Of a stretch of 64,000 nt of DNA, positions 46,119-59,412 are shown in pieces (positions within the stretch are counted from its first letter, which is position 1; each line of letters begins with the position of its first letter). The stretch is from a virus, in IMG/VR virus record IMGVR_UViG_3300025381_001071; one strand, 5' to 3'. The notes beneath the pieces were generated by a model. It ran no database searches, was not told the DNA's origin, and worked only from the letters and a program-made list of their open reading frames with translations. The translations under genes and the position numbers were made by a program.

Positions 46119-46666
46119 TTTTCACCTATAATCATAAAGCGTGTAAAACTCCAATTCGGATATACAAACGCTTTTTCACCACTATACATCAGCTGTCGAA
46201 CTGGGTACATTTTTACAAAATCTTCAAGACAACTCGAATGAACATGATGGTCTTCATGAGGCATATTGTTACCTTGTAGAACAACTGCGGTTCCTTTGGG
46301 AATGTTATTCCACCAATCCATGTTATCAAAATGTTCTGTACTGGTGTTTATGATCATATCCATATTACGCAAAGATGTTATTGATTTATTACAATCTTCT
46401 GTAAAGGCTTTAAACTGCCAATCCTGCCATACCCAGTTTTCATTTATCATATCTGCCACAGGTTGGCACGTTGGATCCATATCTAAACTAACACAGCGAT
46501 CTATTTGTATGTTGCCACGAACTTTGAGTAGGAAATGTGTTATACCATACCAACCGCCGTAGATACCTAAGTAATCTATTTGTGTGTAAATTTTTTCTAG
46601 TTCTTCACACAACCAAATCTTACTGCCTATTTGTCCACTGCTAAATGCGTCTGGATTAATTTCCAT
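46115..46666 (-). CDS. Class I SAM-dependent methyltransferase-like protein
   Basis: IYGGWYG motif I-like, SLDMD, IINTSTEH. Confidence 0.6.
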   Translation of the reverse strand: MEINPDAFSSGQIGSKIWLCEELEKIYTQIDYLGIYGGWYGITHFLLKVRGNIQIDRCVSLDMDPTCQPVADMINENWVWQDWQFKAFTEDCNKSITSLRNMDMIINTSTEHFDNMDWWNNIPKGTAVVLQGNNMPHEDHHVHSSCLEDFVKMYPVRQLMYSGEKAFVYPNWSFTRFMIIGEK

Positions 46667-47202
46667 TATACGTAGTATAGTTCCGGGTATTCGATTAATA
46701 CATGCACACCGCCCTGTTTATAGGCTTTCTTATAGGTATCTACAATCTTGGCATGATCTTTTAAATCATAAAACTTAATGTTTGGGCACATAGATTTGAA
46801 CTCTTTTAAATAGTTGCCTTTATGCTGATGACCAGGATCTAATGGCTTGTCTGAACCTTTGCCCAATCTAATGATCATGTTGGCCTGTTGACCAGTCATT
46901 AGTTCATACTTGTCTACATGGTTAATCAGTTGATTAGCAGCCAATATAATAAAGTCCCAACGAGGATAGAATGTAACCACGGTCTTACCAGTCATAGCAA
47001 TACCTAAACTCATGCCCATTTGTGTTTCTTCCATGACGGGTAGCTCAATCATTTTATCTTTGGACACATTACCCAATGTAGTACTCATAGGATTACCAGC
47101 ATAAACAATCTGTTGTCCTATAAACACTGTGTTGTTTTGCTCTCCCAAATAGGTCATTGCCTGTGTTAAAGCATCTTTATACGGTTGCGTTGTTGTTGTC
47201 AT
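46666..47202 (-). CDS. TPP-dependent enzyme beta subunit (pyrimidine-binding domain only; E1-beta/transketolase-like)
   Basis: IELPVMEETQMGMSLGIA, FYPRWDFI..A.NQL.NH, PGHQH. Confidence 0.85.
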   Translation of the reverse strand: MTTTTQPYKDALTQAMTYLGEQNNTVFIGQQIVYAGNPMSTTLGNVSKDKMIELPVMEETQMGMSLGIAMTGKTVVTFYPRWDFIILAANQLINHVDKYELMTGQQANMIIRLGKGSDKPLDPGHQHKGNYLKEFKSMCPNIKFYDLKDHAKIVDTYKKAYKQGGVHVLIEYPELYYV

Positions 47203-48058
47203 TTTCTATTCGTCTAATAATGTTTTGAGCCATAACTCTGTGGCAAGTTAAACTTGGATGATGATCTTTAGGAGTTACTTCAAACGAAAACTCATCCCAT
47301 TTAACTGTGAGTTCTGGATTATAACCTTTACTGTGCATGGCACCAGGCCACATTAAATCTGTAATGCTTTTATAGTTTTTACCATTGTAGTTAAATGTAA
47401 CAAATCTTTGAGATAACCAAAGATCCTGCTCAATCAAGGGAATATACTCTTCAGGCCAAGTAAAGATTAGGGTCTTTATTCCTTTACTTTCACAAGTTTG
47501 CAGGAACTGTTTGACATTGTCAAGACCCTTTTGAATGTATTGTGCTAAAAACTGATCTAATGACAAACCTTGATCTTCTAAATACTTTAGGAAATGCTGT
47601 TTATGTTCGTCTTTATTAATTTCGTGAAAAGGTAAGTAATGCGTTTTTCCGCTGTGTTCAAATACAACATGATCCCGCTGCCATTGAGTTAGTTGAAATA
47701 CAACATGGGACACTTCTTCGTATTCAATAAATGGAATACTATGTCCACTATACCAAGCACCTTCAGATCTATCAGTAAAACACTTGGTCCACCATGTAAC
47801 AGCACCTTCATTAGATCCACCATTTTGAGGATGAACAAACTCAAAACTATTAAAATGGTCAGCAACTATTCTAGGATAGCGAACGCTTTCCATAAACTTG
47901 ATGTGTGCATGTTTAACTAGTTTAGGATCGTATTGATCCGGAGGAGGTTCTCCTATAGTGGGCAGGTTACTATAATAATATAGACCCTGTCCCCACGTAA
48001 AGGAACATCCAGCAAATATCATGCCTTTGGTAATTCTACAGTTTTCTTTACTTTGCAT
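47177..48058 (-). CDS. SGNH-like protein, paralogue 1
   Basis: FAGCSFTWGQG...NGGSN...DHHPS. Confidence 0.65.
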   Translation of the reverse strand: MQSKENCRITKGMIFAGCSFTWGQGLYYYSNLPTIGEPPPDQYDPKLVKHAHIKFMESVRYPRIVADHFNSFEFVHPQNGGSNEGAVTWWTKCFTDRSEGAWYSGHSIPFIEYEEVSHVVFQLTQWQRDHVVFEHSGKTHYLPFHEINKDEHKQHFLKYLEDQGLSLDQFLAQYIQKGLDNVKQFLQTCESKGIKTLIFTWPEEYIPLIEQDLWLSQRFVTFNYNGKNYKSITDLMWPGAMHSKGYNPELTVKWDEFSFEVTPKDHHPSLTCHRVMAQNIIRRIENDNNNATV

Positions 48059-48989
48059 TATCTTGTTCTATTCTTTTAATAATGTTGTCAGCCACAACTC
48101 GATGACACTTTAAACTAGGATGGTCATCCAAAGTTGGGACTTCGAAATTATCAGTATCAGTGGACAATTTAAACCCGGGTACAGTCATTAAATCATCCAT
48201 AGATAGATAGTTCTTACCTTCGTAGTCGAAAGTAATAAATCTTTCAGAAAACCAACTATCCTTTTTAATATATTCTAAAAAATCATTAGGCCAAGTTAGA
48301 ATATAAGTTTTAATATTTTTATCTTCTAGTTGTTGTAATAAAGTTTTTACCGATGCTAAACTGTTTAGCAATACTTCTTCATTGTGTTGACCCACGGTTT
48401 TATTGTTCAAATTTAACCAATCCAAATATAAATCTCTAAAAGGTCCATCTGGATTCCATAGTAAACTAAGAGTAATTTCTTTCTGTATATTGCCTACCTT
48501 CAACTGTACCGTATCTCGGTTATAAGGAGTTAGTTGAAGAATAAAGTGTGATATATCATTAGTATCAATATATTCTATCTTATCAAACCATTTTGGATGT
48601 GATTCAAAAGTTTCTTTTCCGGAGTCTTTAAAATAATCATAGGCATAGGCATGAACATATTTTGTCGGTTTTCCTGGATTAAGTAAAACAGAGTTTTGTC
48701 TACTAAAACATTCAGACCAATACTCATACATTTTTTTATTACTGCCACCATTTTTGGCGTGTACTATTTCATAGGTATTAAAATGATTGGCAACAAGTCT
48801 AGGATATCGTACAGCATCTTTAAAAGCAACATGTGCCCTGGTTATAAAAATAGGGTTAAAATTATAAGGCTTGTCTTCTATAACAGTTTTAGAGTTAGTA
48901 TAATAATGTAGATTTTGTCCCCATGTAAAGGAACATCCTGCAAATACCATGCCCTTTATAGGAGTTGCATCTGGTTTATATTTCATCAT
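48048..48989 (-). CDS. SGNH-like protein, paralogue 2
   Basis: FAGCSFTWGQN...NGGSN...DDHPS. Confidence 0.65.
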   Translation of the reverse strand: MMKYKPDATPIKGMVFAGCSFTWGQNLHYYTNSKTVIEDKPYNFNPIFITRAHVAFKDAVRYPRLVANHFNTYEIVHAKNGGSNKKMYEYWSECFSRQNSVLLNPGKPTKYVHAYAYDYFKDSGKETFESHPKWFDKIEYIDTNDISHFILQLTPYNRDTVQLKVGNIQKEITLSLLWNPDGPFRDLYLDWLNLNNKTVGQHNEEVLLNSLASVKTLLQQLEDKNIKTYILTWPNDFLEYIKKDSWFSERFITFDYEGKNYLSMDDLMTVPGFKLSTDTDNFEVPTLDDHPSLKCHRVVADNIIKRIEQDNAK

Positions 48990-49687
48990 ATATTAAAATG
49001 TTGCATTATTTCAATAGCCAGCGCCCTAGCTGATTCTAACCCAGGATGTTTTTGATTATGAAATAACGAAGTATCCTGTGTTGCTGCAATAATTTCTTCT
49101 TTAATAGACAACTCTCGTTGTATGATATCCTCGGATATATCGGGCCAATCCCACAAAGAACCTTTACCTCTTTCTAAAAATTCAAATGCTTGACTAGCGG
49201 GCACATCTTTTCCAGTTATTTTAGAACGCAGATTATCTACTGTATAATCTGCCCAATCTAACATATGCTTTTTAGATTTGTGTAGGGGGGCATGGCCGCC
49301 CATTATAGCCCATTTGACAGTAGGATGATTATTTTTAATATCAGTGGCCCATTGATACATTCTTTCGGCAGTAAGATCTATTACTGCATCATATCCTAAT
49401 GTAGAAAACTTTTCTACTTCTGGAGGGGTAAAATCTCTAATCAACTCAGTATGAAACCAAATAACGATATCTGGATACATTGTGGTATCTTTAGTGGCAT
49501 ATAACAATGTTTCTAGTTGTTGAAACTGATAGTTATTACTATTACCTCCCCAAGATTTATTAAATGTAGGATGTCCTTTCTTGAGAAACTGATATTCAAA
49601 CCACTCTGCAATAGAGGTATCTCCTCGTGGCCAAAGATGACAAGGAACGGTTCCCCATGTATCCCCTATTATAACTATATTAGCCAT
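48986..49687 (-). CDS. SGNH-like protein, divergent paralogue 3
   Basis: IIGDTWG...GGNSN...QKHPG (Thr at the nucleophile position). Confidence 0.55.
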   Translation of the reverse strand: MANIVIIGDTWGTVPCHLWPRGDTSIAEWFEYQFLKKGHPTFNKSWGGNSNNYQFQQLETLLYATKDTTMYPDIVIWFHTELIRDFTPPEVEKFSTLGYDAVIDLTAERMYQWATDIKNNHPTVKWAIMGGHAPLHKSKKHMLDWADYTVDNLRSKITGKDVPASQAFEFLERGKGSLWDWPDISEDIIQRELSIKEEIIAATQDTSLFHNQKHPGLESARALAIEIMQHFNI

Positions 49688-50627
49688 TTTTATCCTTTTC
49701 TATTTTTTTAATAATGCTGTCTGCAAATAAACGATGGCAATGTAGACTCGGATGACTATCCACTGGTGGAGTTTCAAAATGTTCATAATCACCTAATATC
49801 TCTAACCCAGGGTTTTTTTGAAACATATCTTCGATACATTCGTAGGTAGAATTGTTATATTCAAATGTTATAAGTTTATCTGCCAAAAGTTCATCTTGTT
49901 TGATTAACGGTACATAGTGGGGAGACCATGTCATGATGTAGGTCTTTATTCCTTTTTCTTCTAAACCTTGTAAAAAGGTTTTAACATTGTTAAAATCGTT
50001 GGCAATAAATTCATTGTGGAACTGAAAAAGATCCATATTTTTATTCAACAACCATTCAGAAAATAAATCTTTATAGTGTTGACTAGGATTCCAAACATCA
50101 AATAGTCTCAACGGACGACCTACTCTATAGATAAAATCAAAGTTTGTAATACGACTTCTCGGCCAATAGGTCAGTTGAAAAACTACATGCGAAATCTCTT
50201 GGTGTTTGGTTTTTGTTAGTTGATCAAACCAAGTGGGATAATCTTGAGCAATTTGAACATCTGTCTTACCTGCAATATCCGGAGCTAGATGATCGTATAA
50301 AGTATTCCTTATAAAGGATCCATGATTATTATCATCGTTAAGGCTTTCTGTCCAATACTCAACCATCAAGTCATTTGCACCACCGTTACTGGGATGAACT
50401 ATTTCAAAAGAATCAAAATGATCAGCAACTAGTCTAGGAAATCTATGCCTGTTTTTAAACTTTAGATTAGCAGTAGTATAAAGCCAAGGGGAATATCCCT
50501 GTTCTTGTTCTTTATAAGTTTCTAACACAGGAGAAAAACTATACCACCAAAGTCCTTGACCCCAGGTAAAAGAATCACCTATAAACAACATGCCCTTTTT
50601 AGATTCAGGGTTTCCACGATATTTCAT
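49680..50627 (-). CDS. SGNH-like protein, paralogue 4
   Basis: FIGDSFTWGQG...NGGAN...DSHPS. Confidence 0.65.
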   Translation of the reverse strand: MKYRGNPESKKGMLFIGDSFTWGQGLWWYSFSPVLETYKEQEQGYSPWLYTTANLKFKNRHRFPRLVADHFDSFEIVHPSNGGANDLMVEYWTESLNDDNNHGSFIRNTLYDHLAPDIAGKTDVQIAQDYPTWFDQLTKTKHQEISHVVFQLTYWPRSRITNFDFIYRVGRPLRLFDVWNPSQHYKDLFSEWLLNKNMDLFQFHNEFIANDFNNVKTFLQGLEEKGIKTYIMTWSPHYVPLIKQDELLADKLITFEYNNSTYECIEDMFQKNPGLEILGDYEHFETPPVDSHPSLHCHRLFADSIIKKIEKDKNG

Positions 50628-51058
50628 TTTTTCTTTTTCTTAGGTTCGCTGGATTCGCCCCAACTGATTTCCCAATCTTTAAAGTCAGCGGCAAGACAAT
50701 CCACTTTATAATCCAATCTGCCACCTACTACTTCTTGTATTTTGTTTTTAGCAGTATTACGAATACCATTTAATCCGTGTGTAAGTGCTAGATTACCTTC
50801 TTTAAGTCCGCGACGGTAAGCAGATTCATTGTGCCAAATATGTAAATTCATTTGACTCACTACCACAATAGCACGAATAGTTTCTGCTGTGATCTCAGCA
50901 TCTGCTTCATTGAGTATAAGCTGAATATCGTGTACAATATCCGCAATCTCCTGCGAATATTCTGCCTTGTGTTCTGTAATGAAAACTTCTTTTAGTTGAA
51001 CAATGCTCAATCTATCAATAAGGTCGCCTAGTGTATGCAAGTATCTTCTCTCAGTCAT
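50624..51058 (-). CDS. Helical hypothetical protein (DUF4254-like)
   Basis: TLGDLIDRLSIVQLK...NLHIWH.E...N..RN..KN.I pattern. Confidence 0.5.
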   Translation of the reverse strand: MTERRYLHTLGDLIDRLSIVQLKEVFITEHKAEYSQEIADIVHDIQLILNEADAEITAETIRAIVVVSQMNLHIWHNESAYRRGLKEGNLALTHGLNGIRNTAKNKIQEVVGGRLDYKVDCLAADFKDWEISWGESSEPKKKKK

Positions 51059-51990
51059 AAGTTTGTAAAGTTCCTGTTATTGTTAGTTATTACAATCGGA
51101 TATGCGGCCATTAACTGTTTGATTCCGTAATCCAAATCATATTGAGGTTTCCATCCCAGTGCTTCAATCTTGTCATTAGACACAATATAGTTACGTTTAT
51201 CAAAGTCTTCCTTAAAGTCGTCTTGTTTGATAACCAGTTTGGGAATGTACTCTTTGATCTTTTCGGCTAACTCTAGTTTACTTAGATTGGCAGTACTTAG
51301 CCCTACATTGTATGCTTGACCGCTAGACTTTTCATAGTTTTCAATCATAAACTCAAAAGCCCGAGCAATGTCTTGTACATGAATATAGTTACGTTTAAAA
51401 TGTGCTTCAAATAACACAAGATACCCGTCTACCATACTTTTGTAAACAAAATCGTTTACCAACAAGTCTTGGCGCATACGGGGACTTACACCAAACACTG
51501 TTGCCAAGCGCATGGCAATACCACCTGCGGCAATCGCAGCATCCTCGGCCTTACACTTTGTTTCAGCATACAGACTCAAAGGTTTAAATGGGCTTTCTTC
51601 TGTGATGATTTGATCCGATGATCCATATTGACTATTTGTATTGGGCATAATCAACATTTGATCTTTATGTAGGTATTTGGCAATCGCTTCTACATGTAAA
51701 AAGTTAACATCAATGGCTAGTTGTGGATTAGCCTTACAGGCAGGCATACCTACAATAGCAGCCAAGGGGATAATGACTTGATGCTGTTGAGTTTGATCTA
51801 ATAATAGTTCGGTATCACGTACATCGCCTTGTACAAACTTAAAATGTTCGTGCTTAAACAAATGAAATAAAGATGCTTGTTTATATAACAGATTATCAAA
51901 TACTGTTACTGCATAGCCTTTATTCAATAGATGTTCTGCTAAGGTGGATCCTAGATATCCAGCCCCGCCTGTGATCAAAACAGTTTTCAC
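51055..51990 (-). CDS. NAD-dependent NDP-sugar epimerase/dehydratase (extended SDR)
   Basis: TGGAGYLG, PLAAIVG, YAETK (YxxxK), RLATVFG. Confidence 0.92.
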   Translation of the reverse strand: MKTVLITGGAGYLGSTLAEHLLNKGYAVTVFDNLLYKQASLFHLFKHEHFKFVQGDVRDTELLLDQTQQHQVIIPLAAIVGMPACKANPQLAIDVNFLHVEAIAKYLHKDQMLIMPNTNSQYGSSDQIITEESPFKPLSLYAETKCKAEDAAIAAGGIAMRLATVFGVSPRMRQDLLVNDFVYKSMVDGYLVLFEAHFKRNYIHVQDIARAFEFMIENYEKSSGQAYNVGLSTANLSKLELAEKIKEYIPKLVIKQDDFKEDFDKRNYIVSNDKIEALGWKPQYDLDYGIKQLMAAYPIVITNNNRNFTNL

Positions 51991-52955
51991 TGGAACTCAT
52001 CCTTGTTGGCAAGATACCAATCGTGGGCTTTCTTAAGTCCAACTTCCAACGGAGTTGTAGCTTCCCAACCTAACTGTGCTTTGATCTTGTTAGAGTCAAT
52101 GCGGCGTGTGGGAATCATACTGGGCTTGCCAGTAACATATTCAATAGGGTTAGTATTGTTAACAAGATTTTTCATAATAGACAGAACATCATTAACAGAG
52201 TAAACATTGTTACAGCCTACATTGTAAACATCATAAGTCTCTTGTTTTTCCATTACTAACTGTACTGCTTCAACAAAGTCATCAATATATAACAAGTCAC
52301 GTAGTTCTGTACCATCGCCCCATACTGGGATAGGATTCATATTGTCTGCAACCTTACGAATAGTTGCTGGTGTAACGTGGCACTTGGCAAAGTCATACTT
52401 GTCGTGAGGGCCGTACAAGTTAGCAGGACGAATAACCACTGTGGTCATTGGTGTGGGCAAATACTTGGCGTAAAGTTCGCATTGAACTTCTGCATAACGT
52501 TTCATCCAACCCACTGGGAAGTAAACAGGATATGGAGCATCAAACAAGAAGTCTGTTTCAACCACCGGTTCGTCGCCTTTTGGTGGATATACTGTGTTGC
52601 TACTGATAAAAATATACTTAGTAACCTTGTTACGATAAGCACTATCGATTAGGAAGTTATTCATAGCCACATTAGGTGTAACGTGTGCAAGTGGGGATTG
52701 AACTGTGTCCACAGCATTACTGGTACTTGCGGCAGCATGAATAACCACATCACAGTCTTTGGTAACATCTAGGCAAGTGTGGTAATCTGTTAGGTCACCA
52801 TTTACATATTCAACACCATTGTGCATATCACGCGGCATACGAGTATGTAAATGTACACGAATATCGGTATAGCCATCAGCTACCAGTTTGTTGGTTAGAT
52901 TTTGTCCGACTAGGCCAGATCCACCTGTGATTAAAATTTTAGAAGTCTTTTCCAT
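51987..52955 (-). CDS. GDP-fucose synthase-like extended SDR (catalytic Tyr replaced)
   Basis: TGGSGLVG, HAAA, ISSNTVY, PVGWMK, RPANLYGP.D, VWGDG...RD. Confidence 0.85.
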   Translation of the reverse strand: MEKTSKILITGGSGLVGQNLTNKLVADGYTDIRVHLHTRMPRDMHNGVEYVNGDLTDYHTCLDVTKDCDVVIHAAASTSNAVDTVQSPLAHVTPNVAMNNFLIDSAYRNKVTKYIFISSNTVYPPKGDEPVVETDFLFDAPYPVYFPVGWMKRYAEVQCELYAKYLPTPMTTVVIRPANLYGPHDKYDFAKCHVTPATIRKVADNMNPIPVWGDGTELRDLLYIDDFVEAVQLVMEKQETYDVYNVGCNNVYSVNDVLSIMKNLVNNTNPIEYVTGKPSMIPTRRIDSNKIKAQLGWEATTPLEVGLKKAHDWYLANKDEFQ

Positions 52956-52966: not shown

Positions 52967-53662
52967 TTAGTTTGATTTGATTAGCATTACTTTTAAACCT
53001 GGATCAGTAGGGAACATATCCACTATTTTGACCAGTTTAAAGTTTTCTTGTGTTAGTATATCTTCTAATATACCTTTTTGATTTAGCTGTGCAGTTATAA
53101 AAATATCTGCATCATCTGTTAGATGAGGGCGTATGTTGGCAAAAAACTCTTTATGAGCAACAAAATCAGTGTCAATCATTAATCTTTTGCCTAGATCATA
53201 CATTTCCTTAGGCATATTGGGATCTACTACATATCCGCCGTCGTTAATCGCATTAGGGGGATTACCGACTACTAGGTCCCATATTTCAGTGTCCGGAATA
53301 CCCGAAATGGTAGGTGTTACATATCCTGTAAACACTTGATCGTAGTTTAGTTTTTTTGCATTTTGAAATCCAGTATACACAGCAAGATCATATATATCAG
53401 AAAATGTGAGTTCGTTACTGATGTCTTGTGTTAATATTTCCCAGCCTATTCTGCCATGTCCGCAACACCATTCAAAACATCTATTATATTTTTTCTTGGC
53501 GCCGTATTTGTCGATAGCTTCTAAAAAGTAAGGAAGGTGGAAATCACCGCCACCTTTAAGATACCATTTATGGTCTATAAACTTGCCGTTGGTTAAACAG
53601 GTACGATTATGCTCGTTTAGATTTAATCCATCCAGTACAGGATTGGTAGGTACAAGGTTCAT
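52967..53662 (-). CDS. SAM-dependent methyltransferase
   Basis: FEWCCGHGRIG motif I, FSDI, DLVVGNPP. Confidence 0.8.
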   Translation of the reverse strand: MNLVPTNPVLDGLNLNEHNRTCLTNGKFIDHKWYLKGGGDFHLPYFLEAIDKYGAKKKYNRCFEWCCGHGRIGWEILTQDISNELTFSDIYDLAVYTGFQNAKKLNYDQVFTGYVTPTISGIPDTEIWDLVVGNPPNAINDGGYVVDPNMPKEMYDLGKRLMIDTDFVAHKEFFANIRPHLTDDADIFITAQLNQKGILEDILTQENFKLVKIVDMFPTDPGLKVMLIKSN

Positions 53663-53669
53663 ATTATAT

Positions 53670-53698
53670 AGTTTAATGTGTTAGAACAAGAATGTCAA
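53670..53698 (-). promoter_or_regulatory. Sigma70-type promoter TTGACA-17-TAAACT, 7 nt before the ATG
   Basis: Read directly from the sequence. Confidence 0.75.
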
Positions 53699-54352
53699 TC
53701 AATCTTTTACAGTGATAAATGACAAATAAGAAACTCTTTTAAATCCATTTTTAACAGTTACTACCGAATGGCTTGGATTGTTTTTTGTAAAATCTAACAA
53801 TACAAAATTACCTAAAACTGGTTGCACTAATATGTCATTATCCTGATCGTGGAGTACTAGGTGTCCTCCAAACGAATCATTATATTCTGAGACATCGTTT
53901 AAGTATATCAGTATTGCACAAATTCTTCCGGGATTATTTCCATCTTCGTGTTTCATTATACCATCGCCGTTTGTATAGTATGTAATACTATCGTCAAACT
54001 TCATATTTTTTAAAGTTGTTACATGATTGGGATAGATATTTTTTAAATATTCGTAGATTTTAGAACGTATATGGTTATGATTTTCATAACTATTTGTATA
54101 ATACCAACTTTGAAAAACAGATTTTCCCTGAGACTTTGCTTGTTTTTTTTGTTCTTCAACTTTATCTAATGGAAAACTCCAAGAGCTGCCTGCTTGCGGG
54201 ATAACTTGAAATGTACATAACCATTGATCAGGATCTTTAATAAAAGAATCCAAAGAGCTAGATCTTATCTCTTTTAAGATATTAACATCTAGACCTATCT
54301 CATCAATATTACCTATATGGTAACCCAATGTGGTCAAACTTTTAGTTGCCAT
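53699..54352 (-). CDS. 2OG-Fe(II) oxygenase (P4H-like fold)
   Basis: KHEDG...LIYLN...GG.L...HSV...R. Confidence 0.85.
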   Translation of the reverse strand: MATKSLTTLGYHIGNIDEIGLDVNILKEIRSSSLDSFIKDPDQWLCTFQVIPQAGSSWSFPLDKVEEQKKQAKSQGKSVFQSWYYTNSYENHNHIRSKIYEYLKNIYPNHVTTLKNMKFDDSITYYTNGDGIMKHEDGNNPGRICAILIYLNDVSEYNDSFGGHLVLHDQDNDILVQPVLGNFVLLDFTKNNPSHSVVTVKNGFKRVSYLSFITVKD

Positions 54353-55030
54353 TTATTTTTCTATGTCCATTAAATTTTTATTTGAAACAAAATCTACGTA
54401 AGCATATCTATTAAATGAATTTTTTACTTCTTCCACTGAATGATGAATATTATGATGTTTAAAATCTAACATAACAAAAGTACCGCGAACTGGTGAAATT
54501 TCCTCATGTAGTTCACCGTCATCTATAATAAGTCGGCCACCGTCTTCTGCATTATAAGTGTCATTCAAATATATAAGAAAGACGCACAATCTGCCCGGAT
54601 TGTTTCCGTCCCTATGCCTTTTAGAAAAATCCCCAGGTTCGTATAAAGTCAACATATCATTATGAAACATTTCAGCTGTTTCTAACTCTGGGTATATAGA
54701 AAGAATATATTCTGATATATATTTTCTAAAAGTTATACACACAGCATAGACTTCACTACCGCCAAACTGCCACCATTTTTGATCCAATGCTAGATTCTTT
54801 TCTATTGTTTCCTGTCGTCTAGAATCGACTTCATTAAATTTAAGACGAGGTTCGTAGGTGTTTCCTATTTGACCACTTATGCAATGCCAATAAATTCCAT
54901 TTTTTTCTTTATCAATAGATAAACTTATTGTTTTATCAATCAAAGAATCTACTATCTGATTATCGGGAATTATTTCATTCAAATTTCCTACATAATACCC
55001 TGTCTTTAAGTATTGTTCAACATCGATCAT
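54353..55030 (-). CDS. 2OG-Fe(II) oxygenase (P4H-like fold), tandem paralogue
   Basis: RHRDGNNPGRLC..LIYLN...GGRL...HSV...R. Confidence 0.85.
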   Translation of the reverse strand: MIDVEQYLKTGYYVGNLNEIIPDNQIVDSLIDKTISLSIDKEKNGIYWHCISGQIGNTYEPRLKFNEVDSRRQETIEKNLALDQKWWQFGGSEVYAVCITFRKYISEYILSIYPELETAEMFHNDMLTLYEPGDFSKRHRDGNNPGRLCVFLIYLNDTYNAEDGGRLIIDDGELHEEISPVRGTFVMLDFKHHNIHHSVEEVKNSFNRYAYVDFVSNKNLMDIEK

Positions 55031-56013
55031 ATTTTATAGTTTTTTGCGTAATTTTTAATAGTACTACGTAGTCCATCTTTTAACGAAGTTTTTGGTAGTA
55101 TATTATATTTACGCTGTTTTTCAGCACCTAGACAACGAAGGAGATCGCCATTGGGCTTGGTTTCATCCCAAATAATGTTCTTGGTTTTGCCAGTTAGTTC
55201 CTTATATACATCAACGATAGTTTCAATAGTATCCTTAATAGTAACTGCTTCTCCGCAACCAAAGTTAATAACGTCATTGACTTCATTAACTACACAATCA
55301 ATAGTAGCCTGTGCAACGTCATCTCCGAACACAAAGTCTCTACGTGCAGATCCGTTACCCCAACATATCATTTCGCTGCCTTCTACATTGAACAGTTTCC
55401 ATACATTGGATCCAATAACTGTGGCATCTTGTGAGAACTTGTCATTTACACCGTAGATATTACTAGGTCGAATGATTGTCCATTTGGTCCAGCCATGCTG
55501 TACTTTTAATGCATCAATAGCCAGCTCGCCCATGCGTTTAGTCCAGCCGGGGTGCCAATCATTCTTACTGGGCATAGTACTCCACACAGTATCTTCTTCC
55601 ATTACATCAGCAGGAGCATATACTCCCACAGATGACAGATATACAAACCAATCTACCTTGGCATCAAACGCTGCCTTAATCACATTGGTATTAAACATCA
55701 TCATGGGAAACACATAATCAGCAGGGCTTTTAGCAGTTCGGCTAGGACTGCCTTTGATTCCAGCAATGTGTAACACCACATCTACATGACGTTTTTTAAA
55801 GAAAGACTCAACTTGATCCATATAGGTTAAATCAATCTTTACGCCGATACAACGGCCGGCAAACTCTGCTTCTAGGCTATGTATCTCTGGTGTAATGTTA
55901 ATGTCCATGGCATAGACAATGTCAGCACCCTGTTCTAGGCACTTGCGTATTGTAGGAAGGCCAACAAGTCCTGCGGCTCCGGTTACTACTACTCGTTTGT
56001 TTGTTAGTTTCAT
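55027..56013 (-). CDS. GDP-fucose synthase-like extended SDR (catalytic Tyr replaced)
   Basis: TGAAGLVG, HIAG, LSSVGVY, HPGWTK, RPSNIYG..D, WGNGSARRDF. Confidence 0.85.
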   Translation of the reverse strand: MKLTNKRVVVTGAAGLVGLPTIRKCLEQGADIVYAMDINITPEIHSLEAEFAGRCIGVKIDLTYMDQVESFFKKRHVDVVLHIAGIKGSPSRTAKSPADYVFPMMMFNTNVIKAAFDAKVDWFVYLSSVGVYAPADVMEEDTVWSTMPSKNDWHPGWTKRMGELAIDALKVQHGWTKWTIIRPSNIYGVNDKFSQDATVIGSNVWKLFNVEGSEMICWGNGSARRDFVFGDDVAQATIDCVVNEVNDVINFGCGEAVTIKDTIETIVDVYKELTGKTKNIIWDETKPNGDLLRCLGAEKQRKYNILPKTSLKDGLRSTIKNYAKNYKI

Positions 56014-56017
56014 ATGA

Positions 56018-57436
56018 TTATAATGTTGAAAAGAAATCTTCTAAAGGGTTATAGTTCTTTAGACTTAAAAAATGTTGTTGGTTATAGATTAATATATCAG
56101 TTAATGAGTAATACCAGTTATGGAGTTCTTCCATACTCATTGCCTTAAATCTATTAATTTCTGCCACAATCATTTTGAGGCGGGTTTTAGGATCTGCTTC
56201 TAGGGCATAACTTTCGTCAATGTAGGGATGAAATGTTTTAAATCCCAATCGTCGAATTTCATCTAGGCCATTGTGATTGCCTAGATAGATAAATGGTTGT
56301 AGATTAAGGATAGGCCTAAATGTTTTTTCAGATAAAAATGGACTCCATTTAACACCATTATCAAACTGTGTTTCAGATGTAATGTGTAAGTAGGTGTCTA
56401 GGTAGTATTCCTTTTTATTGTTCTCATTGGTTTGGAATCCTTCTTTGCCCTGCGGAGTTAACTCTTGTGTATCTATTTCATAGGGCAACATATCGATGAT
56501 AGTTTTTACTCCCTGAGCTATTTCTTCCTTTGTACCATCGATTAACTTTGCCATTTCTGATTCAGGTTCCCGATGCACTGTAGTTAAGAAACTAAACAAA
56601 CTATCATCCAACCAGTTATTACGAATAGCTTCATGCATTAGTGCAAGTCTATGAGCTCTATTCATGCTTCGATTCCAAGATAAGAATCGTTTGGGACGAA
56701 CGACTGAAGAGTCTAAATCAGAAACTTTTACATAATCGCTTTCATAACTAAGTGATGATCTTGGAATAGGATAGCGATGTGCTATGGCAACTTGTTGTTC
56801 CATCGATGCATGTGAAGTACCTAGTTTTGCTTTACCAAAGTTTCTAGAGTGATAATCGTTTCGAATATTACCTTGTAGTAACAAAACATTCTCACCGGGT
56901 ACACCCAATCGTCCTAAAGCAATTTCCATAAAGTTTGTGGTATATTCACAAACAGCAGGTTCAGTTAAACAAGAAATTAAAACTTTGATTTTACCTTTGG
57001 CAAAAACTTCCCGAGTTTTAGGAGATAATGTATCTGGAAAATGATAGTTATGAGTTTCGCCATCTAATGTAAACTTAAAATCGCCATAAATCGCATCTGT
57101 ACTCCAGTGATGAAGTTCAATAGGATAAAGATAAATGCAATCATCGTTTTCATCAACATCATCTATAGACACTATGTTTTCAATACCGTAGTGTTTATGA
57201 AAGTAATAAAAAACATTCGAGTGTACAAATATATCTCCATCCTGAGGACCTATATGATAGTTATTAAATCTAAAATACATATTACCATCCAGATTAACTT
57301 CAACAGTATTAGTTGTTAACCAGTTTTTTATATATTCTAAAATAACAGGATGAGTACCATTAGCCAATGGCATTTGTTTGTTATCTGTTGTAGTGAACCA
57401 GTTAGAGTAAACTAACTTATATTTGCTTTGACTCAT
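56018..57436 (-). CDS. Glycosyltransferase-like protein (SEKT family)
   Basis: FLSWNR...HR...LHITSET...FLSEKTFRPI..LQPFIYLG...GFKTF...IDESY. Confidence 0.55.
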   Translation of the reverse strand: MSQSKYKLVYSNWFTTTDNKQMPLANGTHPVILEYIKNWLTTNTVEVNLDGNMYFRFNNYHIGPQDGDIFVHSNVFYYFHKHYGIENIVSIDDVDENDDCIYLYPIELHHWSTDAIYGDFKFTLDGETHNYHFPDTLSPKTREVFAKGKIKVLISCLTEPAVCEYTTNFMEIALGRLGVPGENVLLLQGNIRNDYHSRNFGKAKLGTSHASMEQQVAIAHRYPIPRSSLSYESDYVKVSDLDSSVVRPKRFLSWNRSMNRAHRLALMHEAIRNNWLDDSLFSFLTTVHREPESEMAKLIDGTKEEIAQGVKTIIDMLPYEIDTQELTPQGKEGFQTNENNKKEYYLDTYLHITSETQFDNGVKWSPFLSEKTFRPILNLQPFIYLGNHNGLDEIRRLGFKTFHPYIDESYALEADPKTRLKMIVAEINRFKAMSMEELHNWYYSLTDILIYNQQHFLSLKNYNPLEDFFSTL

Positions 57437-58814
57437 AGTTTAATAGTTCTTGAAAGGGGTTATAGTTTTTAAAAGTATGTAGATGGTTCTGATTGTGTAC
57501 AAGTACATCAGTAATAGAATGGTACCAATCATTTAACTGACCAATAGGTAGTTGAGCAATCTTTAATATTTCTTGTTTGATTAATGCAAATCTCTTTTTA
57601 TGATCTTTTTCTAGATCGTAACTTTCGTCGATGAATGGATGAAAAGTTTTAAATCCCAGTTGATGTAGTTTATTTAATGCGGCATAGTTACCCATGTAAA
57701 TAAATGGCTGTAGGTTCAATATAGGTCTCCATGTCTTTTCAGAGAAGAATGGAGTTTCATCTTTATCAAAATCTGTTTCAGTTGTGATGTGTACATAACT
57801 GTATCGATAAAACTCTTTTTTATTACTGTATACAGGAAAGAATGTAAATCGCTGTTCGTCAGGCAAATGATCAGTATCTAAATGATAAGGTACGATACTA
57901 GCAATATCTTCTACCATTTCATCTGTGCCTTCCATGACCCTGTTTAACATATCAACGGTATCATGTTTAACATCAAATAGGAAACTAAAAAACCCTTCCC
58001 GTAACAACTTATGTTCTATAGCCAGTTGACATAGGCCTATGCGGTGGGGGCGGCCCATTCTATTAAAACTTAAAAATCTTTTAGATCTAATAGAGTATCG
58101 ACTAATATCACCGGGTTTAACATAATCACTAACATAGTTTAGTCCTGTATCAAACGGATACTTATCCATAAGATTTGCTGTTTGATATAAGGCAATATCG
58201 CTACCTAATAGGGTCATGCTAGTTTTAATATCGTATCTTACATTACCCTGTAAGCATACAATGTTACTACCTTTTATTCCTAGGTTCAATAGCAGTTTCT
58301 CCACATCTTCTAAAATAGATGGTTCGATAGAAGGATCAATCATGTTAACCAATAATAGTTTAACACGACCTGTTTGGAGTAGTTCTAATATTTTAGGAGT
58401 TAATGAGTTCCCGATAGAATGACGGTATTCGGTACCATCGACCATTATATCTGTTTCATTTAAAACAAACTGTACAGTATTACATTCTAACTCAATGGGA
58501 TAATAGTAACTGCCATCTGTAACTTGATCTTCACTTACTATATTATCTAACCCAAATGACTCTTTAAAATGATAAAAGAAGTTAGAGTTTCTAAAATAAT
58601 ATCCAGATTTAGGATTGTTATAGTAATAACAGTCATCGATTTCTTTTATTCTTAGAAAATCGTCACTGTGCTGTAAATGATCGTTGATTATTTTATCCTG
58701 CATCCAGTTAACTAGTGCAGGATGTAATCCGTTAGCTAATGGGTATCTTATATTATCTATAGTATACCAGTTAGAATAAACTAACTTAAAAGGCGATCCA
58801 CTTGCCTGAACCAT
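57417..58814 (-). CDS. Glycosyltransferase-like protein (SEKT family), tandem paralogue
   Basis: FLSFNR...HR...VHITTET...FFSEKTWRPI..LQPFIYMG...GFKTF...IDESYD. Confidence 0.55.
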   Translation of the reverse strand: MVQASGSPFKLVYSNWYTIDNIRYPLANGLHPALVNWMQDKIINDHLQHSDDFLRIKEIDDCYYYNNPKSGYYFRNSNFFYHFKESFGLDNIVSEDQVTDGSYYYPIELECNTVQFVLNETDIMVDGTEYRHSIGNSLTPKILELLQTGRVKLLLVNMIDPSIEPSILEDVEKLLLNLGIKGSNIVCLQGNVRYDIKTSMTLLGSDIALYQTANLMDKYPFDTGLNYVSDYVKPGDISRYSIRSKRFLSFNRMGRPHRIGLCQLAIEHKLLREGFFSFLFDVKHDTVDMLNRVMEGTDEMVEDIASIVPYHLDTDHLPDEQRFTFFPVYSNKKEFYRYSYVHITTETDFDKDETPFFSEKTWRPILNLQPFIYMGNYAALNKLHQLGFKTFHPFIDESYDLEKDHKKRFALIKQEILKIAQLPIGQLNDWYHSITDVLVHNQNHLHTFKNYNPFQELLNYESKQI

Positions 58815-59412
58815 AGTGCGGGTATTTTGATTTATATTTGTAGTAGACTACATCTTCCGGAATATCGCGTTGCTTTTTCCAAGTTGCCTTAGTAGGTGTA
58901 TAGGTTGATACTCCGTTGTCTTCTACAACAAAATACAATGGTAAATCAAAGTTTCTAGCATACTTGTGTGCTTCGTAAAAAGCACCAGTTTCAAAACTCA
59001 TATCGCCGATAAAACACCATACCTTTTCGTCGCTGCCAGAGTCCTTGATACTTTTTGCCACACCCAGAGCAATAGCAATAGTAGAAGATACAATGGCGCT
59101 AGAATAAAAGTGTTCATCGATATTGCAGATAGTAATGCTCTTACCAGCAAGGATTTCATCTTCTAGCCATACAGGGTCAATGCCTTTAAGCAATGCATGA
59201 TAATGACTGCGCCAAGTAGAAAACACCCAGTCAGTGGCCTTAATGCGCTTAAAGATATCGATCAAGGGTTTTTCGTTGCCGTCCGACAAATGCACCGGGC
59301 CACGAATCTTGGCATCTTCCCAATGCTCCACAATGCGTTGCTCGAACGCCTGTAGTTGTTCTACTGTATATCCGTGTTTACGGACAACGGGATATTGTTT
59401 TAAGTTTTTCAT
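58786..59412 (-). CDS. TPP-dependent enzyme alpha subunit (E1-alpha-like, short)
   Basis: GPVHLS.GNE, STWRSHYHAL, FIGDMS...VVEDN TPP motif; ATGA coupling to the rmlC stop. Confidence 0.88.
   Translation of the reverse strand: MKNLKQYPVVRKHGYTVEQLQAFEQRIVEHWEDAKIRGPVHLSDGNEKPLIDIFKRIKATDWVFSTWRSHYHALLKGIDPVWLEDEILAGKSITICNIDEHFYSSAIVSSTIAIALGVAKSIKDSGSDEKVWCFIGDMSFETGAFYEAHKYARNFDLPLYFVVEDNGVSTYTPTKATWKKQRDIPEDVVYYKYKSKYPHYGSGKWIAF

What the first reader, a model, noticed from the sequence alone, without database searches (positions are those of the whole stretch)
46666..59412. Minimal split TPP enzyme, probably making a C-branched sugar
The alpha subunit (about 208 aa, GDM...EDN) and beta subunit (178 aa, no C-terminal domain) are much shorter than PDH E1, have no E2/E3 partners here and lie 11.6 kb apart, bracketing the cluster. 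The alpha gene is coupled to rmlC. Established precedents, AviB1/AviB2 (avilamycin) and YerE (yersiniose), transfer a two-carbon unit from pyruvate to an NDP-4-keto sugar. That fits better than central metabolism.
Basis: partly seen in the sequence, partly recalled or inferred. Interest (0 to 1): 0.7.

Follow-up and report, generated by a model that had tools for sequence, protein, structure and literature searches.

The report
Minimal split thiamine enzyme, heptose cluster
A giant freshwater phage carries a stripped-down two-gene thiamine-dependent enzyme inside a GDP-heptose tailoring operon, probably to add a carbon branch to a 4-keto sugar; the same unstudied mini-enzyme is common in phages, SAR11 and many uncultured microbes.

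Summary
A 208-aa PP-domain subunit (58786-59412, GDM...EDN) and a 178-aa Pyr-domain subunit (46666-47202) lie on the minus strand, 11.6 kb apart, in one co-directional gene array. The genome fragment has no E2, E3 or lipoyl gene.

They are two halves of one enzyme:
- both match a single 405-aa phage family, which is fused in cyanophages S-SM2 and P-TIM68;
- about 70 fused forms of about 400 aa exist;
- a complex prediction passes (0.86, best control 0.00).

The pair belongs to a distinct clade, separate from full-length E1 alpha. It is always alpha then beta, with spacers from -16 bp to 7.8 kb in relatives.

The context is not dTDP-rhamnose. The coupled "rmlC" matches Campylobacter GDP-4-keto-heptose epimerases best. 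The most conserved partner is about 55% identical to PDB 6VO6, which I recall as the GDP-heptose C4 dehydrogenase Cj1427. Two further partners resemble GDP-fucose synthase. In SAR11 the pair sits inside a full GDP-heptose gene set.

Best reading (0.55): a carboligase that branches a GDP-4-keto-heptose. The chemistry is untested.

This scan reached the same reading before on other DNA (e1-5370643). I found no paper on this family. It is a new variant of a known kind.

The parts
58786..59412 (-). Mini ThDP enzyme, alpha subunit (PP domain, 208 aa). Motifs HLSxGNE, WRSHYH, GDM-x27-EDN, and a C-terminal PHxGxGKW tail with invariant His199.
   Evidence: Pfam E1_dh 1.5e-13. PDB human PDH E1 alpha 1.3e-9. 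AF2 pLDDT 94.4. VIA Z 20.0 to 2OZL_A, 193 residues aligned, model 5-204 to chain 20-268. Family conservation.
46666..47202 (-). Mini ThDP enzyme, beta subunit (Pyr domain only, 178 aa). Cofactor-activating Glu58 in PVMEE; invariant Asn94-His95, Arg81 and Gln126-His127.
   Evidence: Pfam Transket_pyr 5.7e-8. BCKDH E1 beta 1.3e-6. Conservation. Same phrog_34187 as alpha. Complex prediction ipSAE 0.86, best control 0.00.
59409..59948 (-). Cupin epimerase, translationally coupled to alpha (ATGA). Resembles the GDP-D-glycero-4-keto-D-lyxo-heptose 3,5-/3-epimerases (Cj1430/MlghB type).
   Evidence: PDB 8DCO, 8DB5, 8DCL, 7M14 and 7ANG at about 1e-35, against 3e-19 for dTDP RmlC. Pfam dTDP_sugar_isom.
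51055..51990 (-). Extended SDR (311 aa), about 55% identical to PDB 6VO6/6VO8. By my recollection that entry is Cj1427, the GDP-heptose C4 dehydrogenase. Likely maker of the 4-keto acceptor.
   Evidence: 7.1e-98 over residues 2-308. Homologues of 43-51% identity lie next to the mini pair in phages (36 of 46 loci) and cells.
51987..52955 (-). SDR similar to GDP-fucose synthase (322 aa). Candidate ketoreductase or epimerase-reductase. This type is fused to alpha in P0276.
   Evidence: PDB 1BWS 3.3e-30. P0276 N-terminal half 36% identical, 5e-58.
55027..56013 (-). Second SDR similar to GDP-fucose synthase (328 aa). Conserved between alpha and beta in nearly all related phage loci.
   Evidence: PDB 7LL6 7.6e-21. 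Synteny.
57417..58814 (-). Putative GT-B-fold glycosyltransferase (465 aa), phage-only family, with a TET...SEK motif that recalls GT10.
   Evidence: No Pfam match. AF2 pLDDT 89.4. Foldseek finds GT-B enzymes TarM, SdgB, TreT, OtsA and T4 BGT at probability about 1 but TM only about 0.3. Atlas gives a weak GT10 lead, 0.79.
56018..57436 (-). Paralogue of the previous protein (472 aa), putative GT-B glycosyltransferase.
   Evidence: 39% identical to the 465-aa protein in alignment A4.
59945..62389 (-). 814-aa protein of no known family. In related loci its homologues also match the 465/472-aa family, which suggests a related part.
   Evidence: No Pfam, NCBIfam or PHROG match. Co-located tblastn matches in related loci.
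62386..64000 (-). B12-binding radical SAM enzyme, cut by the window end. Its N-terminal B12 domain lies outside the window at G000:C1:14154 onward.
   Evidence: Radical_SAM 5.8e-15. B12-binding plus Radical_SAM on the longer ORF. Homologous to the radical SAM half of the rSAM-alpha fusion P0282 (1e-15).
53699..55030 (-). Two tandem 2OG-Fe(II) oxygenases (225 and 217 aa).
   Evidence: Pfam 2OG-FeII_Oxy_3, 5e-11 and 2.4e-9.
52967..53662 (-). Candidate methyltransferase (231 aa); weak assignment.
   Evidence: Pfam MTS 2e-4, below the cut-off. NCBIfam PrmC-like 7e-8.
47177..51058 (-). Five ORFs of unknown function (144, 315, 233, 313 and 293 aa). The 315, 313 and 293-aa proteins are paralogues. 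The 144-aa helical protein is 67-86% identical across relatives.
   Evidence: No Pfam match. Paralogy. Atlas finds phage-only clusters, one auto-named SGNH/GDSL. Alignment A5.
45795..46666 (-). 183-aa unknown ORF whose start overlaps the beta stop, then a 107-aa cupin like the C-terminal part of the bifunctional mannose-1-phosphate guanylyltransferase/mannose-6-phosphate isomerase. This is the 3' end of the array.
   Evidence: Coordinates. Pfam MannoseP_isomer 7.2e-29. The 183-aa ORF has no homologue in related loci.

Best explanation
The two genes encode the PP-domain and Pyr-domain halves of one minimal E1-like thiamine-diphosphate enzyme, probably an alpha2beta2 assembly. I infer that it works as a carboligase on a nucleotide sugar.

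Proposed steps, all inferred:
1. [quoted passage not shown]
2. The coupled cupin epimerises the 4-keto intermediate.
3. The ThDP enzyme decarboxylates a 2-oxo acid, most likely pyruvate, and adds the resulting hydroxyethyl carbanion to the C4 carbonyl. This gives a 4-C-acetyl tertiary alcohol.
4. The GDP-fucose-synthase-like SDRs, the B12-radical SAM enzyme, the oxygenases and the methyltransferase tailor the product.
5. The GT-B-like proteins transfer it to an unknown acceptor.

Shown here: domain identity, an intact cofactor-binding and catalytic residue set, partnership of the two halves, absence of E2/E3/lipoyl genes, and conserved linkage to GDP-heptose-type enzymes. Not shown: donor, acceptor, regiochemistry and product.
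For: One enzyme in two genes:
- Both match phrog_34187 (405 aa), alpha to positions 3-199 and beta to 237-401.
- The gene is fused in S-SM2 and P-TIM68 and in about 70 metagenomic proteins of about 400 aa.
- The two genes are adjacent in 30+ cellular loci.
- Order and strand are the same in all 39 related phage loci with the two as separate genes, with spacers from -16 to 7812 bp.
- Complex prediction: score 0.86, best of 3 controls 0.00, at least 97% of contacts agree between runs, partner pLDDT at least 90. The mark was reached by 58 of 80 solved complexes and 2 of 110 mismatched pairs. The pass may come from memory of solved E1 structures.

Catalytically competent:
- GD[MG]-x27-[ED]N motif and the beta Glu58 are conserved.
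- Alpha His199 is invariant and is the last residue aligned to residue 263 of human E1 alpha. By ranges it falls at BCKDH residue 291.
- Beta His127 falls at about BCKDH beta-146. PDB titles name His291-alpha and His146-beta' as catalytic.
- An intein sits exactly before the GDM motif in a homologue.

Not a PDH:
- All 49 mini sequences form a separate clade from 45 full-length E1 alpha (branch 1.01, SH-aLRT 99).
- The beta C-domain is absent.
- No E2, E3 or lipoyl gene in this record or in complete relatives.

Nucleotide-sugar context:
- The epimerase matches GDP-4-keto-heptose epimerases.
- The 311-aa SDR hits 6VO6 at 7e-98.
- Two SDRs resemble GDP-fucose synthase.
- Among 101 neighbours in 9 cellular loci: 18 SDRs, 8 GHMP kinases, 6 nucleotidyltransferases, 3 GmhA-type SIS, 8 radical SAM, 8 GT2.
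- In SAR11 locus L067 the pair sits between GmhA and the kinase.
- Fusions of alpha to an SDR, a B12-radical SAM enzyme and an FkbM methyltransferase exist.
- The full-length E1 pairs nearest in the tree also sit by Cj1427-like SDRs or B12-radical SAM genes.

Precedent: E1-type pairs add pyruvate-derived C2 units to keto sugars, and KbDH does so in vitro (PMC12247030).
Against: - No biochemical data exist for any family member.
- Identifying 6VO6 as Cj1427 rests on my memory plus the matching neighbours. I could not confirm it in a held paper.
- Cyanophages S-SM2 and P-TIM68 have a Zn-ADH beside the fused gene instead of a Cj1427-like SDR, and about a quarter of phage loci and half of cellular loci show no such SDR within 10 kb. 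The keto-forming partner is therefore not universal.
- SAR11 clusters also carry a DegT aminotransferase that could use the same 4-keto group.
- Retention of both histidines used by true E1s for reductive acylation means chemistry on a thiol acceptor is not excluded by the active site.
- The phage record has no GDP-heptose synthesis genes, so the starting sugar is assumed to come from the host.
- The tree is a quick search and contains no AviB-type sequences.
Confidence: 0.55

Rival explanations
1. The enzyme is a carboligase with different partners from the best reading. It could transfer a hydroxyacetyl (glycolaldehyde) unit in transketolase style, or add an acyl anion to an aldehyde, for example on the heptose side chain. 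The product would be a hydroxyacetyl branch or a chain-extended higher sugar, not a 4-C-acetyl branch.
For: - Split-gene transketolases are proposed to branch keto sugars in miharamycin and amipurimycin (PMC12247030).
- The alpha fold also matches a split transketolase (6YAK, Z 15.0) and DXP synthases (Z 14.8), and Pfam DXP_synthase_N hits at 3.3e-7.
- The many invariant His and Arg residues (alpha H41, R68, H70, H199; beta R81, H95, H127) recall transketolase active sites.
- Oxygenases and radical SAM enzymes in the cluster could create other carbonyls.
Against: - E1 alpha is clearly the closest relative: Z 20 against 15, and the top 36 structural rows are all heterotetrameric E1 alpha.
- The most conserved partner is a C4 dehydrogenase-like SDR.
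- Known E1-type sugar-branching enzymes use pyruvate only.
Confidence: 0.2
2. The enzyme only decarboxylates, without forming a new C-C bond. It would convert a 2-oxo-acid sugar or a small 2-oxo acid to an aldehyde that other enzymes in the cluster use.
For: - All ThDP E1-like enzymes decarboxylate as their first half-reaction.
- Minimal two-domain ThDP decarboxylases exist in another superfamily: sulfopyruvate and phosphonopyruvate decarboxylases (my knowledge).
- A Zn-ADH lies beside the fused gene in the cyanophages, which would fit reduction of an aldehyde.
Against: - No PEP mutase is present, and no ulosonic-acid synthase was seen.
- Linkage and gene fusion are with nucleotide-sugar enzymes: SDRs, the epimerase and the C4 dehydrogenase-like SDR.
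- The family is E1-like, not related to phosphonopyruvate decarboxylase.
Confidence: 0.08
3. The enzyme is a mini-transketolase acting on sugar phosphates. It would supply sedoheptulose-7-phosphate or a related ketose phosphate to the heptose pathway.
For: - In SAR11 locus L067 the pair sits between GmhA and the heptose kinase.
- Cyanophage neighbours include GmhA, a kinase, nucleotidyltransferases and a class II aldolase.
- The cyanophage genes are annotated as 'transketolase central region-containing protein'.
Against: - The giant phages keep the pair while lacking GmhA and, in three of four relatives, any nucleotidyltransferase.
- Alpha is translationally coupled to an epimerase that acts on nucleotide sugars.
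- Alpha is fused elsewhere to enzymes that tailor nucleotide sugars.
- The sequence and fold are E1-like.
Confidence: 0.07
4. The enzyme is a true E1-type dehydrogenase. It would reductively acylate a lipoyl or other thiol carrier, taken from the host or from an unrecognised phage protein.
For: - Both histidines implicated in reductive acylation appear to be retained: alpha His199 and beta His127.
- An earlier first-reader note reports a free lipoyl domain in a related cluster of another genome (e1-5873889).
Against: - No lipoyl, E2 or E3 match in this record, and no lipoyl or E2 match in three complete related genomes.
- The beta C-terminal domain is missing. From my knowledge, that domain docks E2 in alpha2beta2 E1s; PDB 1W85 is the E1-PSBD complex.
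- The family forms a clade separate from PDH, BCKDH and acetoin E1.
Confidence: 0.05

Closest known systems
E1-type (alphaKADH2) sugar-branching ThDP enzymes: AviB1/AviB2 (avilamycin), Pau11/Pau12 (paulomycin), the aldgamycin pair, KbDH-alpha/beta (kibdelomycin)
   Same: An E1 alpha/beta-like pair without E2 or E3, encoded among nucleotide-sugar tailoring genes. They are thought to add a pyruvate-derived C2 unit to a keto sugar, and KbDH does so in vitro. Later reduction, methylation or transamination of the branch matches the SDR, methyltransferase, radical SAM and aminotransferase neighbours seen here (PMC12247030, PMC4753412).
   Different: The known examples are actinomycete antibiotic pathways. 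This enzyme keeps only the PP core of alpha (208 aa) and the Pyr domain of beta (178 aa). It has a family-specific C-terminal tail, occurs fused or split, and is linked to GDP-heptose genes in phages and planktonic bacteria. Its phylogenetic relation to AviB-type proteins was not tested.
Heterotetrameric 2-oxoacid dehydrogenase E1 (human PDH E1, PDB 1NI4/2OZL; BCKDH E1, 1DTW/2J9F)
   Same: Closest in sequence (1.3e-9 for alpha, 1.3e-6 for beta) and in fold (Z 20.0, rmsd 2.2 A, 193 residues). Same cofactor motif spacing, the same activating Glu, and both catalytic histidines appear to be kept.
   Different: It lacks about 95 C-terminal residues and several loops of alpha, and the whole C-terminal domain of beta. 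It has no E2, E3 or lipoyl partner and forms a separate clade.
Campylobacter jejuni capsular heptose modification pathway (Cj1427 C4 dehydrogenase, Cj1430 epimerase, Cj1428 reductase)
   Same: The neighbours of the ThDP pair match this trio: 6VO6 at 7e-98, the GDP-4-keto-heptose epimerases at 1e-35, and reductases similar to GDP-fucose synthase. The pathway is described in PMC10680097.
   Different: C. jejuni has no ThDP enzyme in this pathway. There the 4-keto sugar is simply epimerised and reduced.
YerE (Yersinia, yersiniose A)
   Same: A ThDP-dependent transfer of an acetyl equivalent from pyruvate to the C4 carbonyl of a nucleotide-linked 4-keto sugar: the same proposed chemistry.
   Different: From my knowledge, YerE is a single-chain enzyme of the decarboxylase / acetolactate-synthase superfamily, with Pyr-middle-PP domain order. 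The fused forms here run PP then Pyr, have no middle domain, and are E1-like.
Cyanophage 'transketolase central region-containing protein' (S-SM2 SSM2_198, P-TIM68 AIR93527; phrog_34187)
   Same: Same family in its fused form: 39-46% identity to alpha and 31-34% to beta, also in a phage sugar or heptose cluster.
   Different: One 402-aa polypeptide beside a Zn-ADH, with no Cj1427-like SDR nearby. It is annotated only by domain name; the PHROG function is unknown.

Membership tests
Heterotetrameric 2-oxoacid dehydrogenase E1 (alphaKADH2 superfamily) | ThDP/Mg-binding GDG-x(25-30)-N(N) motif in a PP-domain alpha subunit | tested here: met
   GDM...EDN with the same spacing as GDG...ENN of human E1 alpha. 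Conserved as GD[MG]...[ED]N across 25 family members.
Heterotetrameric 2-oxoacid dehydrogenase E1 (alphaKADH2 superfamily) | Alpha fold closest to E1 alpha | tested here: met
   VIA Z 20.0, rmsd 2.2 A, 193 residues aligned to 2OZL_A. A split transketolase scores Z 15.0 and DXP synthase 14.8. Foldseek top 50 are all E1 alpha.
Heterotetrameric 2-oxoacid dehydrogenase E1 (alphaKADH2 superfamily) | Beta subunit Pyr domain with the cofactor-activating Glu | tested here: met
   Transket_pyr 5.7e-8. PVMEE aligns with PLCEQ of BCKDH beta. Glu58 is invariant.
Heterotetrameric 2-oxoacid dehydrogenase E1 (alphaKADH2 superfamily) | Catalytic histidine pair (BCKDH alpha-His291 and beta'-His146) | tested here: met
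   Invariant alpha His199 is the last residue aligned to residue 263 of 3EXH_A, and by ranges corresponds to 291 in BCKDH chains. Invariant beta His127 lies about 18 residues past the aligned position 127 of BCKDH beta. This rests on alignment ranges, not on printed residue pairs.
Heterotetrameric 2-oxoacid dehydrogenase E1 (alphaKADH2 superfamily) | Full-length alpha (about 320-400 aa) with the C-terminal region after the catalytic His | tested here: not met
   208 aa. The model covers chain residues 20-268 of 362. E1_dh profile positions 5-171 of 300.
Heterotetrameric 2-oxoacid dehydrogenase E1 (alphaKADH2 superfamily) | Beta C-terminal (transketolase C-like) domain, the E2 docking site | tested here: not met
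   178 aa with only Transket_pyr. It aligns to residues 5-164 of the 329-aa human E1 beta.
Heterotetrameric 2-oxoacid dehydrogenase E1 (alphaKADH2 superfamily) | E2 (lipoyl acyltransferase) and E3 partners | tested here: not met
   No PF00198, PF00364 or PF02852 match in the record. No PF00198 or PF00364 match in three complete relatives.
E1-type sugar-branching ThDP enzymes (AviB1/B2, Pau11/12, KbDH) | E1 alpha/beta-like pair without E2/E3 inside a nucleotide-sugar tailoring cluster | tested here: met
E1-type sugar-branching ThDP enzymes (AviB1/B2, Pau11/12, KbDH) | Co-encoded enzyme that makes a keto-sugar acceptor | tested here: met
   311-aa SDR at 7e-98 to 6VO6. Homologues lie by the pair in 36 of 46 phage loci and many cellular loci. 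The function of 6VO6 is from my memory, supported by PMC10680097 for Cj1427.
E1-type sugar-branching ThDP enzymes (AviB1/B2, Pau11/12, KbDH) | Phylogenetic grouping with characterised members | not tested
   No AviB, Pau, Alm or KbDH sequence could be fetched with these tools. The nearest full-length E1 pairs in my tree (L082, L117, L084) are sugar or radical SAM associated.
E1-type sugar-branching ThDP enzymes (AviB1/B2, Pau11/12, KbDH) | Pyruvate-dependent C2 transfer to a keto sugar | not testable with these tools
   Needs an enzyme assay.
Transketolase / DXP synthase | PP-Pyr-TKC three-domain architecture, with best similarity to TK or DXPS | tested here: not met
   No TKC domain. TK and DXPS models score far below E1 models. 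Z 15 against 20.
YerE / acetolactate-synthase-like ThDP enzymes | Pyr-middle-PP domain order in one chain | tested here: not met
   Fused forms run PP (E1_dh) then Pyr (Transket_pyr) with no middle domain.
C. jejuni-type GDP-heptose modification module (context) | C4 dehydrogenase, C3/C5 epimerase and C4 reductase homologues together | tested here: met
C. jejuni-type GDP-heptose modification module (context) | GDP-heptose synthesis genes (GmhA, kinase, nucleotidyltransferase) in the same genome | tested here: not met
   None in the 99-kb record, which is an estimated 28% of the genome. They are present beside the pair in cellular loci and in the cyanophages.

The most novel reading that the evidence does not exclude
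The mini enzyme defines an unrecognised, environmentally abundant route to a C4-branched nine-carbon sugar: an acetyl- or hydroxyethyl-branched heptose carried on GDP. Giant freshwater phages, cyanophages, SAR11 and many uncultured lineages would make it. The phages would use it, through their own GT-B-like transferases, to decorate virions, DNA or the infected cell surface. The two halves also mark the edges of a site where tailoring cassettes have been inserted repeatedly.
Probability: 0.35. Interest if true: 0.8.

Novelty: new variant of a known kind. Interest (0 to 1): 0.6.

Why it matters
If the reading holds, the smallest known E1-type ThDP enzyme (about 390 residues in total, PP plus Pyr only) would be a compact C-C bond-forming catalyst for tertiary-alcohol sugars, which interests biocatalysis. 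It would also point to an unknown branched heptose-derived sugar made by some of the most abundant aquatic microbes and their viruses. That bears on phage-host recognition, on the surface chemistry of the SAR11 hypervariable region, and on dissolved organic matter.

The family is large: over 5,000 clusters at 90% identity of near query length, and 631 representatives at 50% identity with E below 1e-10. I found no experimental study of it in the papers I could search.

Tried and rejected
- Megablast of the 14-kb region against phage records found nothing.
- Phosphonate hypothesis (phosphonopyruvate decarboxylase plus a PhpK/Fom3-like B12-radical SAM enzyme): rejected. There is no PEP mutase, the domain order and fold are E1-like, and the neighbours are sugar enzymes.
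- I tried to confirm in held papers that PDB 6VO6 is Cj1427. PMC7509852 and PMC7500870 are not held, and text searches for 6VO6 gave only chance hits.
- A literature search for heptose plus thiamine diphosphate plus branched found nothing relevant. A search for cyanophage plus 'transketolase central region' gave no paper among the 10 listed that held the second phrase.
- Sigma-70 promoter and terminator scans were not above shuffled sequence, and there is no T4 late motif TATAAATA in 45-64 kb. Internal transcription signals are therefore unresolved.
- The radical SAM-SPASM part of fusion P0298 showed only weak similarity (E 0.01) to the upstream SPASM ORFs.
- Atlas searches for the 465-aa and 313-aa proteins gave only phage-only unnamed clusters and weak leads.

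Full report
**What is there.** The window is the minus strand of a 99-kb IMG/VR virus record that CheckV rates 28% complete. Close relatives are complete genomes of 245-289 kb, so this is a giant phage. Tail-fibre, ligase and endolysin genes fit that.

From about 64000 down to 45795, every gene is on the minus strand, with overlapping or tiny gaps. The alpha gene most likely starts at the ATG at 59412, giving 208 aa. That ATG overlaps the stop of the upstream cupin gene as ATGA. Alpha matches the first half of the E1_dh profile and carries GDM...EDN with the same spacing as the cofactor motif of human PDH E1 alpha. Beta (46666-47202, 178 aa) is a bare Transket_pyr domain. The two genes are 11,583 bp apart.

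The record has no E2, lipoyl or E3 match. Three complete related genomes have no E2 or lipoyl match. The array extends at least 11 kb upstream of alpha: an 814-aa protein, a B12-radical SAM enzyme and five further radical SAM ORFs. And the "rmlC" is not a dTDP-rhamnose enzyme (see the context section below).

**Two genes, one enzyme.**
- Both proteins match a single 405-aa PHROG, alpha to positions 3-199 and beta to 237-401.
- That fused form is annotated in cyanophages S-SM2 and P-TIM68 as "transketolase central region-containing protein".
- About 70 fused proteins of about 400 aa turned up among longer homologues, and Pfam confirms E1_dh followed by Transket_pyr in them.
- In 44 related IMG/VR loci, alpha and beta always lie on the same strand with alpha first. 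The spacer runs from -16 bp (overlapping) through 84 bp and 1 kb (a single SDR) to 7.8 kb, with a median of 3.9 kb. In four loci beta lies beyond the 10-kb flank, as it would here.
- In cellular genomes the two genes are nearly always adjacent.
- Complex prediction gave 0.86 against a best control of 0.00. At least 97% of contacts agree between runs and the partner pLDDT is at least 90. The mark was reached by 58 of 80 solved complexes and 2 of 110 mismatched pairs. Because E1 complexes have been solved, this pass shows likeness and may come from memory.

**What kind of ThDP enzyme.** The closest solved sequences are human PDH E1 alpha (1.3e-9) and BCKDH E1 beta (1.3e-6).

An AlphaFold model of alpha (pLDDT 94.4) aligns 193 residues to human E1 alpha at Z 20.0 and rmsd 2.2 A. 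It spans chain residues 20-268 of 362. All leading rows are heterotetrameric E1 alpha. A split transketolase scores Z 15.0 and DXP synthases 14.8.

Residues conserved across the family are:
- alpha: His41, Arg68, His70, Gly136-Asp137, Glu164, Asn166, and His199 in a family-specific PHxGxGKW tail;
- beta: Glu58-Glu59, Arg81, Asn94-His95 and Gln126-His127.

His199 is the last residue aligned to residue 263 of human E1 alpha. By alignment ranges it corresponds to BCKDH residue 291, and beta His127 falls at about beta-146. PDB titles name His291-alpha and His146-beta' as the residues of the reductive acylation step. So the catalytic core is intact. What is missing is about 95 C-terminal residues and some loops of alpha, and the whole C-terminal domain of beta. 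From my own knowledge, that beta domain is where E2 docks.

A quick maximum-likelihood tree (94 rows, 174 columns) puts all 49 mini sequences on one side of a long branch (1.01, SH-aLRT 99). These include split and fused forms from phages and cells. All 45 sampled full-length E1 alpha sequences fall on the other side. In the search for related loci, identity drops from 42-56% within the family to 35% or less for canonical E1 alpha, which also match only up to about residue 175.

In one homologue, a 356-aa intein sits exactly in front of the GDM motif. This is the kind of site inteins favour.

**Context.**
- The cupin coupled to alpha matches Campylobacter jejuni GDP-D-glycero-4-keto-D-lyxo-heptose 3,5- and 3-epimerases at about 1e-35. 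True RmlC scores about 1e-19.
- The 311-aa SDR is about 55% identical (7e-98) to PDB 6VO6/6VO8. [quoted passage not shown] The enzyme's chemistry is described in PMC10680097, but I could not confirm the PDB code in a held paper.
- The 322-aa and 328-aa SDRs resemble GDP-fucose synthase, the type to which the Cj1428 C4 reductases belong.
- The 311-aa SDR type is the most conserved neighbour of the pair. It appears at 40% identity or more in 36 of 46 phage loci, and at 43-51% in many cellular loci.

Cellular homologues occur in SAR11 single-cell genomes, SAR116, Verrucomicrobiota, Nitrospira, Chloroflexota, Saccharibacteria, Omnitrophota and Woesearchaeota. Among 101 neighbouring ORFs in nine such loci, Pfam finds 18 extended SDRs, 8 GHMP kinases, 6 nucleotidyltransferases, 3 GmhA-type SIS proteins, 8 radical SAM enzymes (3 with a B12 domain), 8 GT2, 7 DegT aminotransferases, 3 RmlC-like cupins and 2 aldo-keto reductases.

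In SAR11 locus L067 the gene order is: GT4, GmhA, alpha, beta, GHMP kinase, DegT, B12-radical SAM, epimerase, Cj1427-like SDR, and a nucleotidyltransferase-phosphatase on the other strand.

Gene fusions point the same way. Alpha is found fused to:
- an SDR of the 322-aa type (36% identity, 5e-58);
- a B12-radical SAM enzyme homologous to the one at the head of this array (1e-15);
- an FkbM methyltransferase;
- a radical SAM-SPASM protein.

The three full-length E1 pairs nearest the mini clade also sit beside Cj1427-like SDRs or B12-radical SAM genes.

This phage record has no GmhA, nucleotidyltransferase or PEP mutase. Only one of four related genomes has a nucleotidyltransferase. The starting GDP sugar is therefore presumably the host's.

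**Most likely mechanism (inference).**
1. The Cj1427-like SDR makes a GDP-4-keto-heptose.
2. The coupled epimerase adjusts C3/C5.
3. The ThDP enzyme decarboxylates pyruvate and adds the hydroxyethyl carbanion to the C4 carbonyl.
4. The SDRs, the radical SAM enzyme, the oxygenases and the methyltransferase tailor the branch.
5. The GT-B-like proteins transfer the sugar.

The 465-aa protein models well (pLDDT 89.4) and matches GT-B glycosyltransferases with Foldseek probability about 1 but TM only about 0.3. It has a TET...SEK motif reminiscent of GT10.

The chemistry follows the E1-type sugar-branching enzymes reviewed in PMC12247030: aldgamycin, kosinostatin, kibdelomycin (KbDH, shown in vitro), avilamycin and paulomycin (PMC4753412). 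I put 0.55 on this reading. The rivals are another donor or acceptor (0.2), decarboxylation only (0.08), a sugar-phosphate transketolase role (0.07) and a true lipoyl-directed E1 (0.05).

**Comparison, novelty and earlier notes.** The enzyme works like an AviB-type branching enzyme and is built like the core of an E1. It fails three defining E1 features: a full-length alpha, the beta C-domain, and E2/E3 partners. Its relation to AviB-type proteins is untested. I file it as a new variant of a known kind.

This scan has flagged the same pair in several other genomes. One follow-up (e1-5370643) reached the same reading independently, so the idea is not new to the scan. I found no paper on the family.

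The class of chemistry and "not central metabolism" hold. The acceptor (a 6-deoxy sugar from a dehydratase route) and the rmlC label need changing, and YerE is only an analogy.

**Limits.**
- No assay exists for any member.
- The tree is a quick search without AviB-type rows.
- The identity of 6VO6 rests on my memory.
- The record is a fragment, so absent genes may lie elsewhere in the genome.

Noticed in passing
L048 (G000:C1) 7971-14153, just upstream of the window's 64000 end: Five tandem radical SAM ORFs. Three of them (417, 414 and 431 aa) have a SPASM domain at the N-terminus, before the radical SAM core, which is the reverse of the usual order. They are followed by the B12-radical SAM gene that runs into the window.
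   Followed up: partly
P0149 (homologue of alpha); site equivalent to window alpha residues 134/136: An intein of about 356 aa (Intein_splicing, HINT) is inserted exactly before the GDM cofactor motif. P0143 carries a LAGLIDADG domain upstream of its alpha part.
   Followed up: yes
Related loci L004-L047, compared with window 46666-59412: The space between alpha and beta behaves like a cassette insertion site. It ranges from fused (cyanophages), through overlapping (L042), 84 bp (L045), one SDR (L038) and 3-8 kb in most loci, to 11.6 kb with 16 genes here.
   Followed up: partly
window 43461-44477: NifU-like and two IscA-like Fe-S assembly genes lie just downstream of the sugar array and the endolysin. 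They could serve the six radical SAM enzymes. NifU/IscA homologues also lie about 5 kb from the pair in SAR11 loci L067 and L069, and IscA homologues near it in phage L043. This may be coincidence.
   Followed up: no
window 50624-51058: A 144-aa all-helical protein with no family (weak DUF4254 hit, E 0.004) is 67-86% identical across ten related loci, making it the most conserved protein of the array. It usually lies next to the Cj1427-like SDR.
   Followed up: partly
L079 (Prochlorococcus single-cell genome AG-402-G19) 2630-3829: The fused 399-aa gene in this SAG is sister to the P-TIM68 cyanophage gene (SH-aLRT 96, very short branches). The contig may be phage DNA from an infected cell.
   Followed up: no
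L082 (Elusimicrobiota) 8008-17050; L117 (Marinomonas atlantica) 9962-15035: Full-length E1 alpha/beta pairs (about 310 and 340-420 aa) lie directly beside Cj1427-like SDRs (47-51% identity), and in L082 beside a B12-radical SAM enzyme. These are possible full-size counterparts of the mini enzyme, one of them in a cultured strain.
   Followed up: partly
window 56018-62389: Two to three paralogous phage-only proteins (465 aa, 472 aa, and possibly part of the 814-aa protein). The two shorter ones share invariant Arg, Glu and Lys residues and a TET...SEK motif. The 465-aa model has a GT-B fold.
   Followed up: partly
P0228: A 552-aa homologue fuses an APH-family phosphotransferase domain (residues 34-253) to the alpha subunit.
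   Followed up: no
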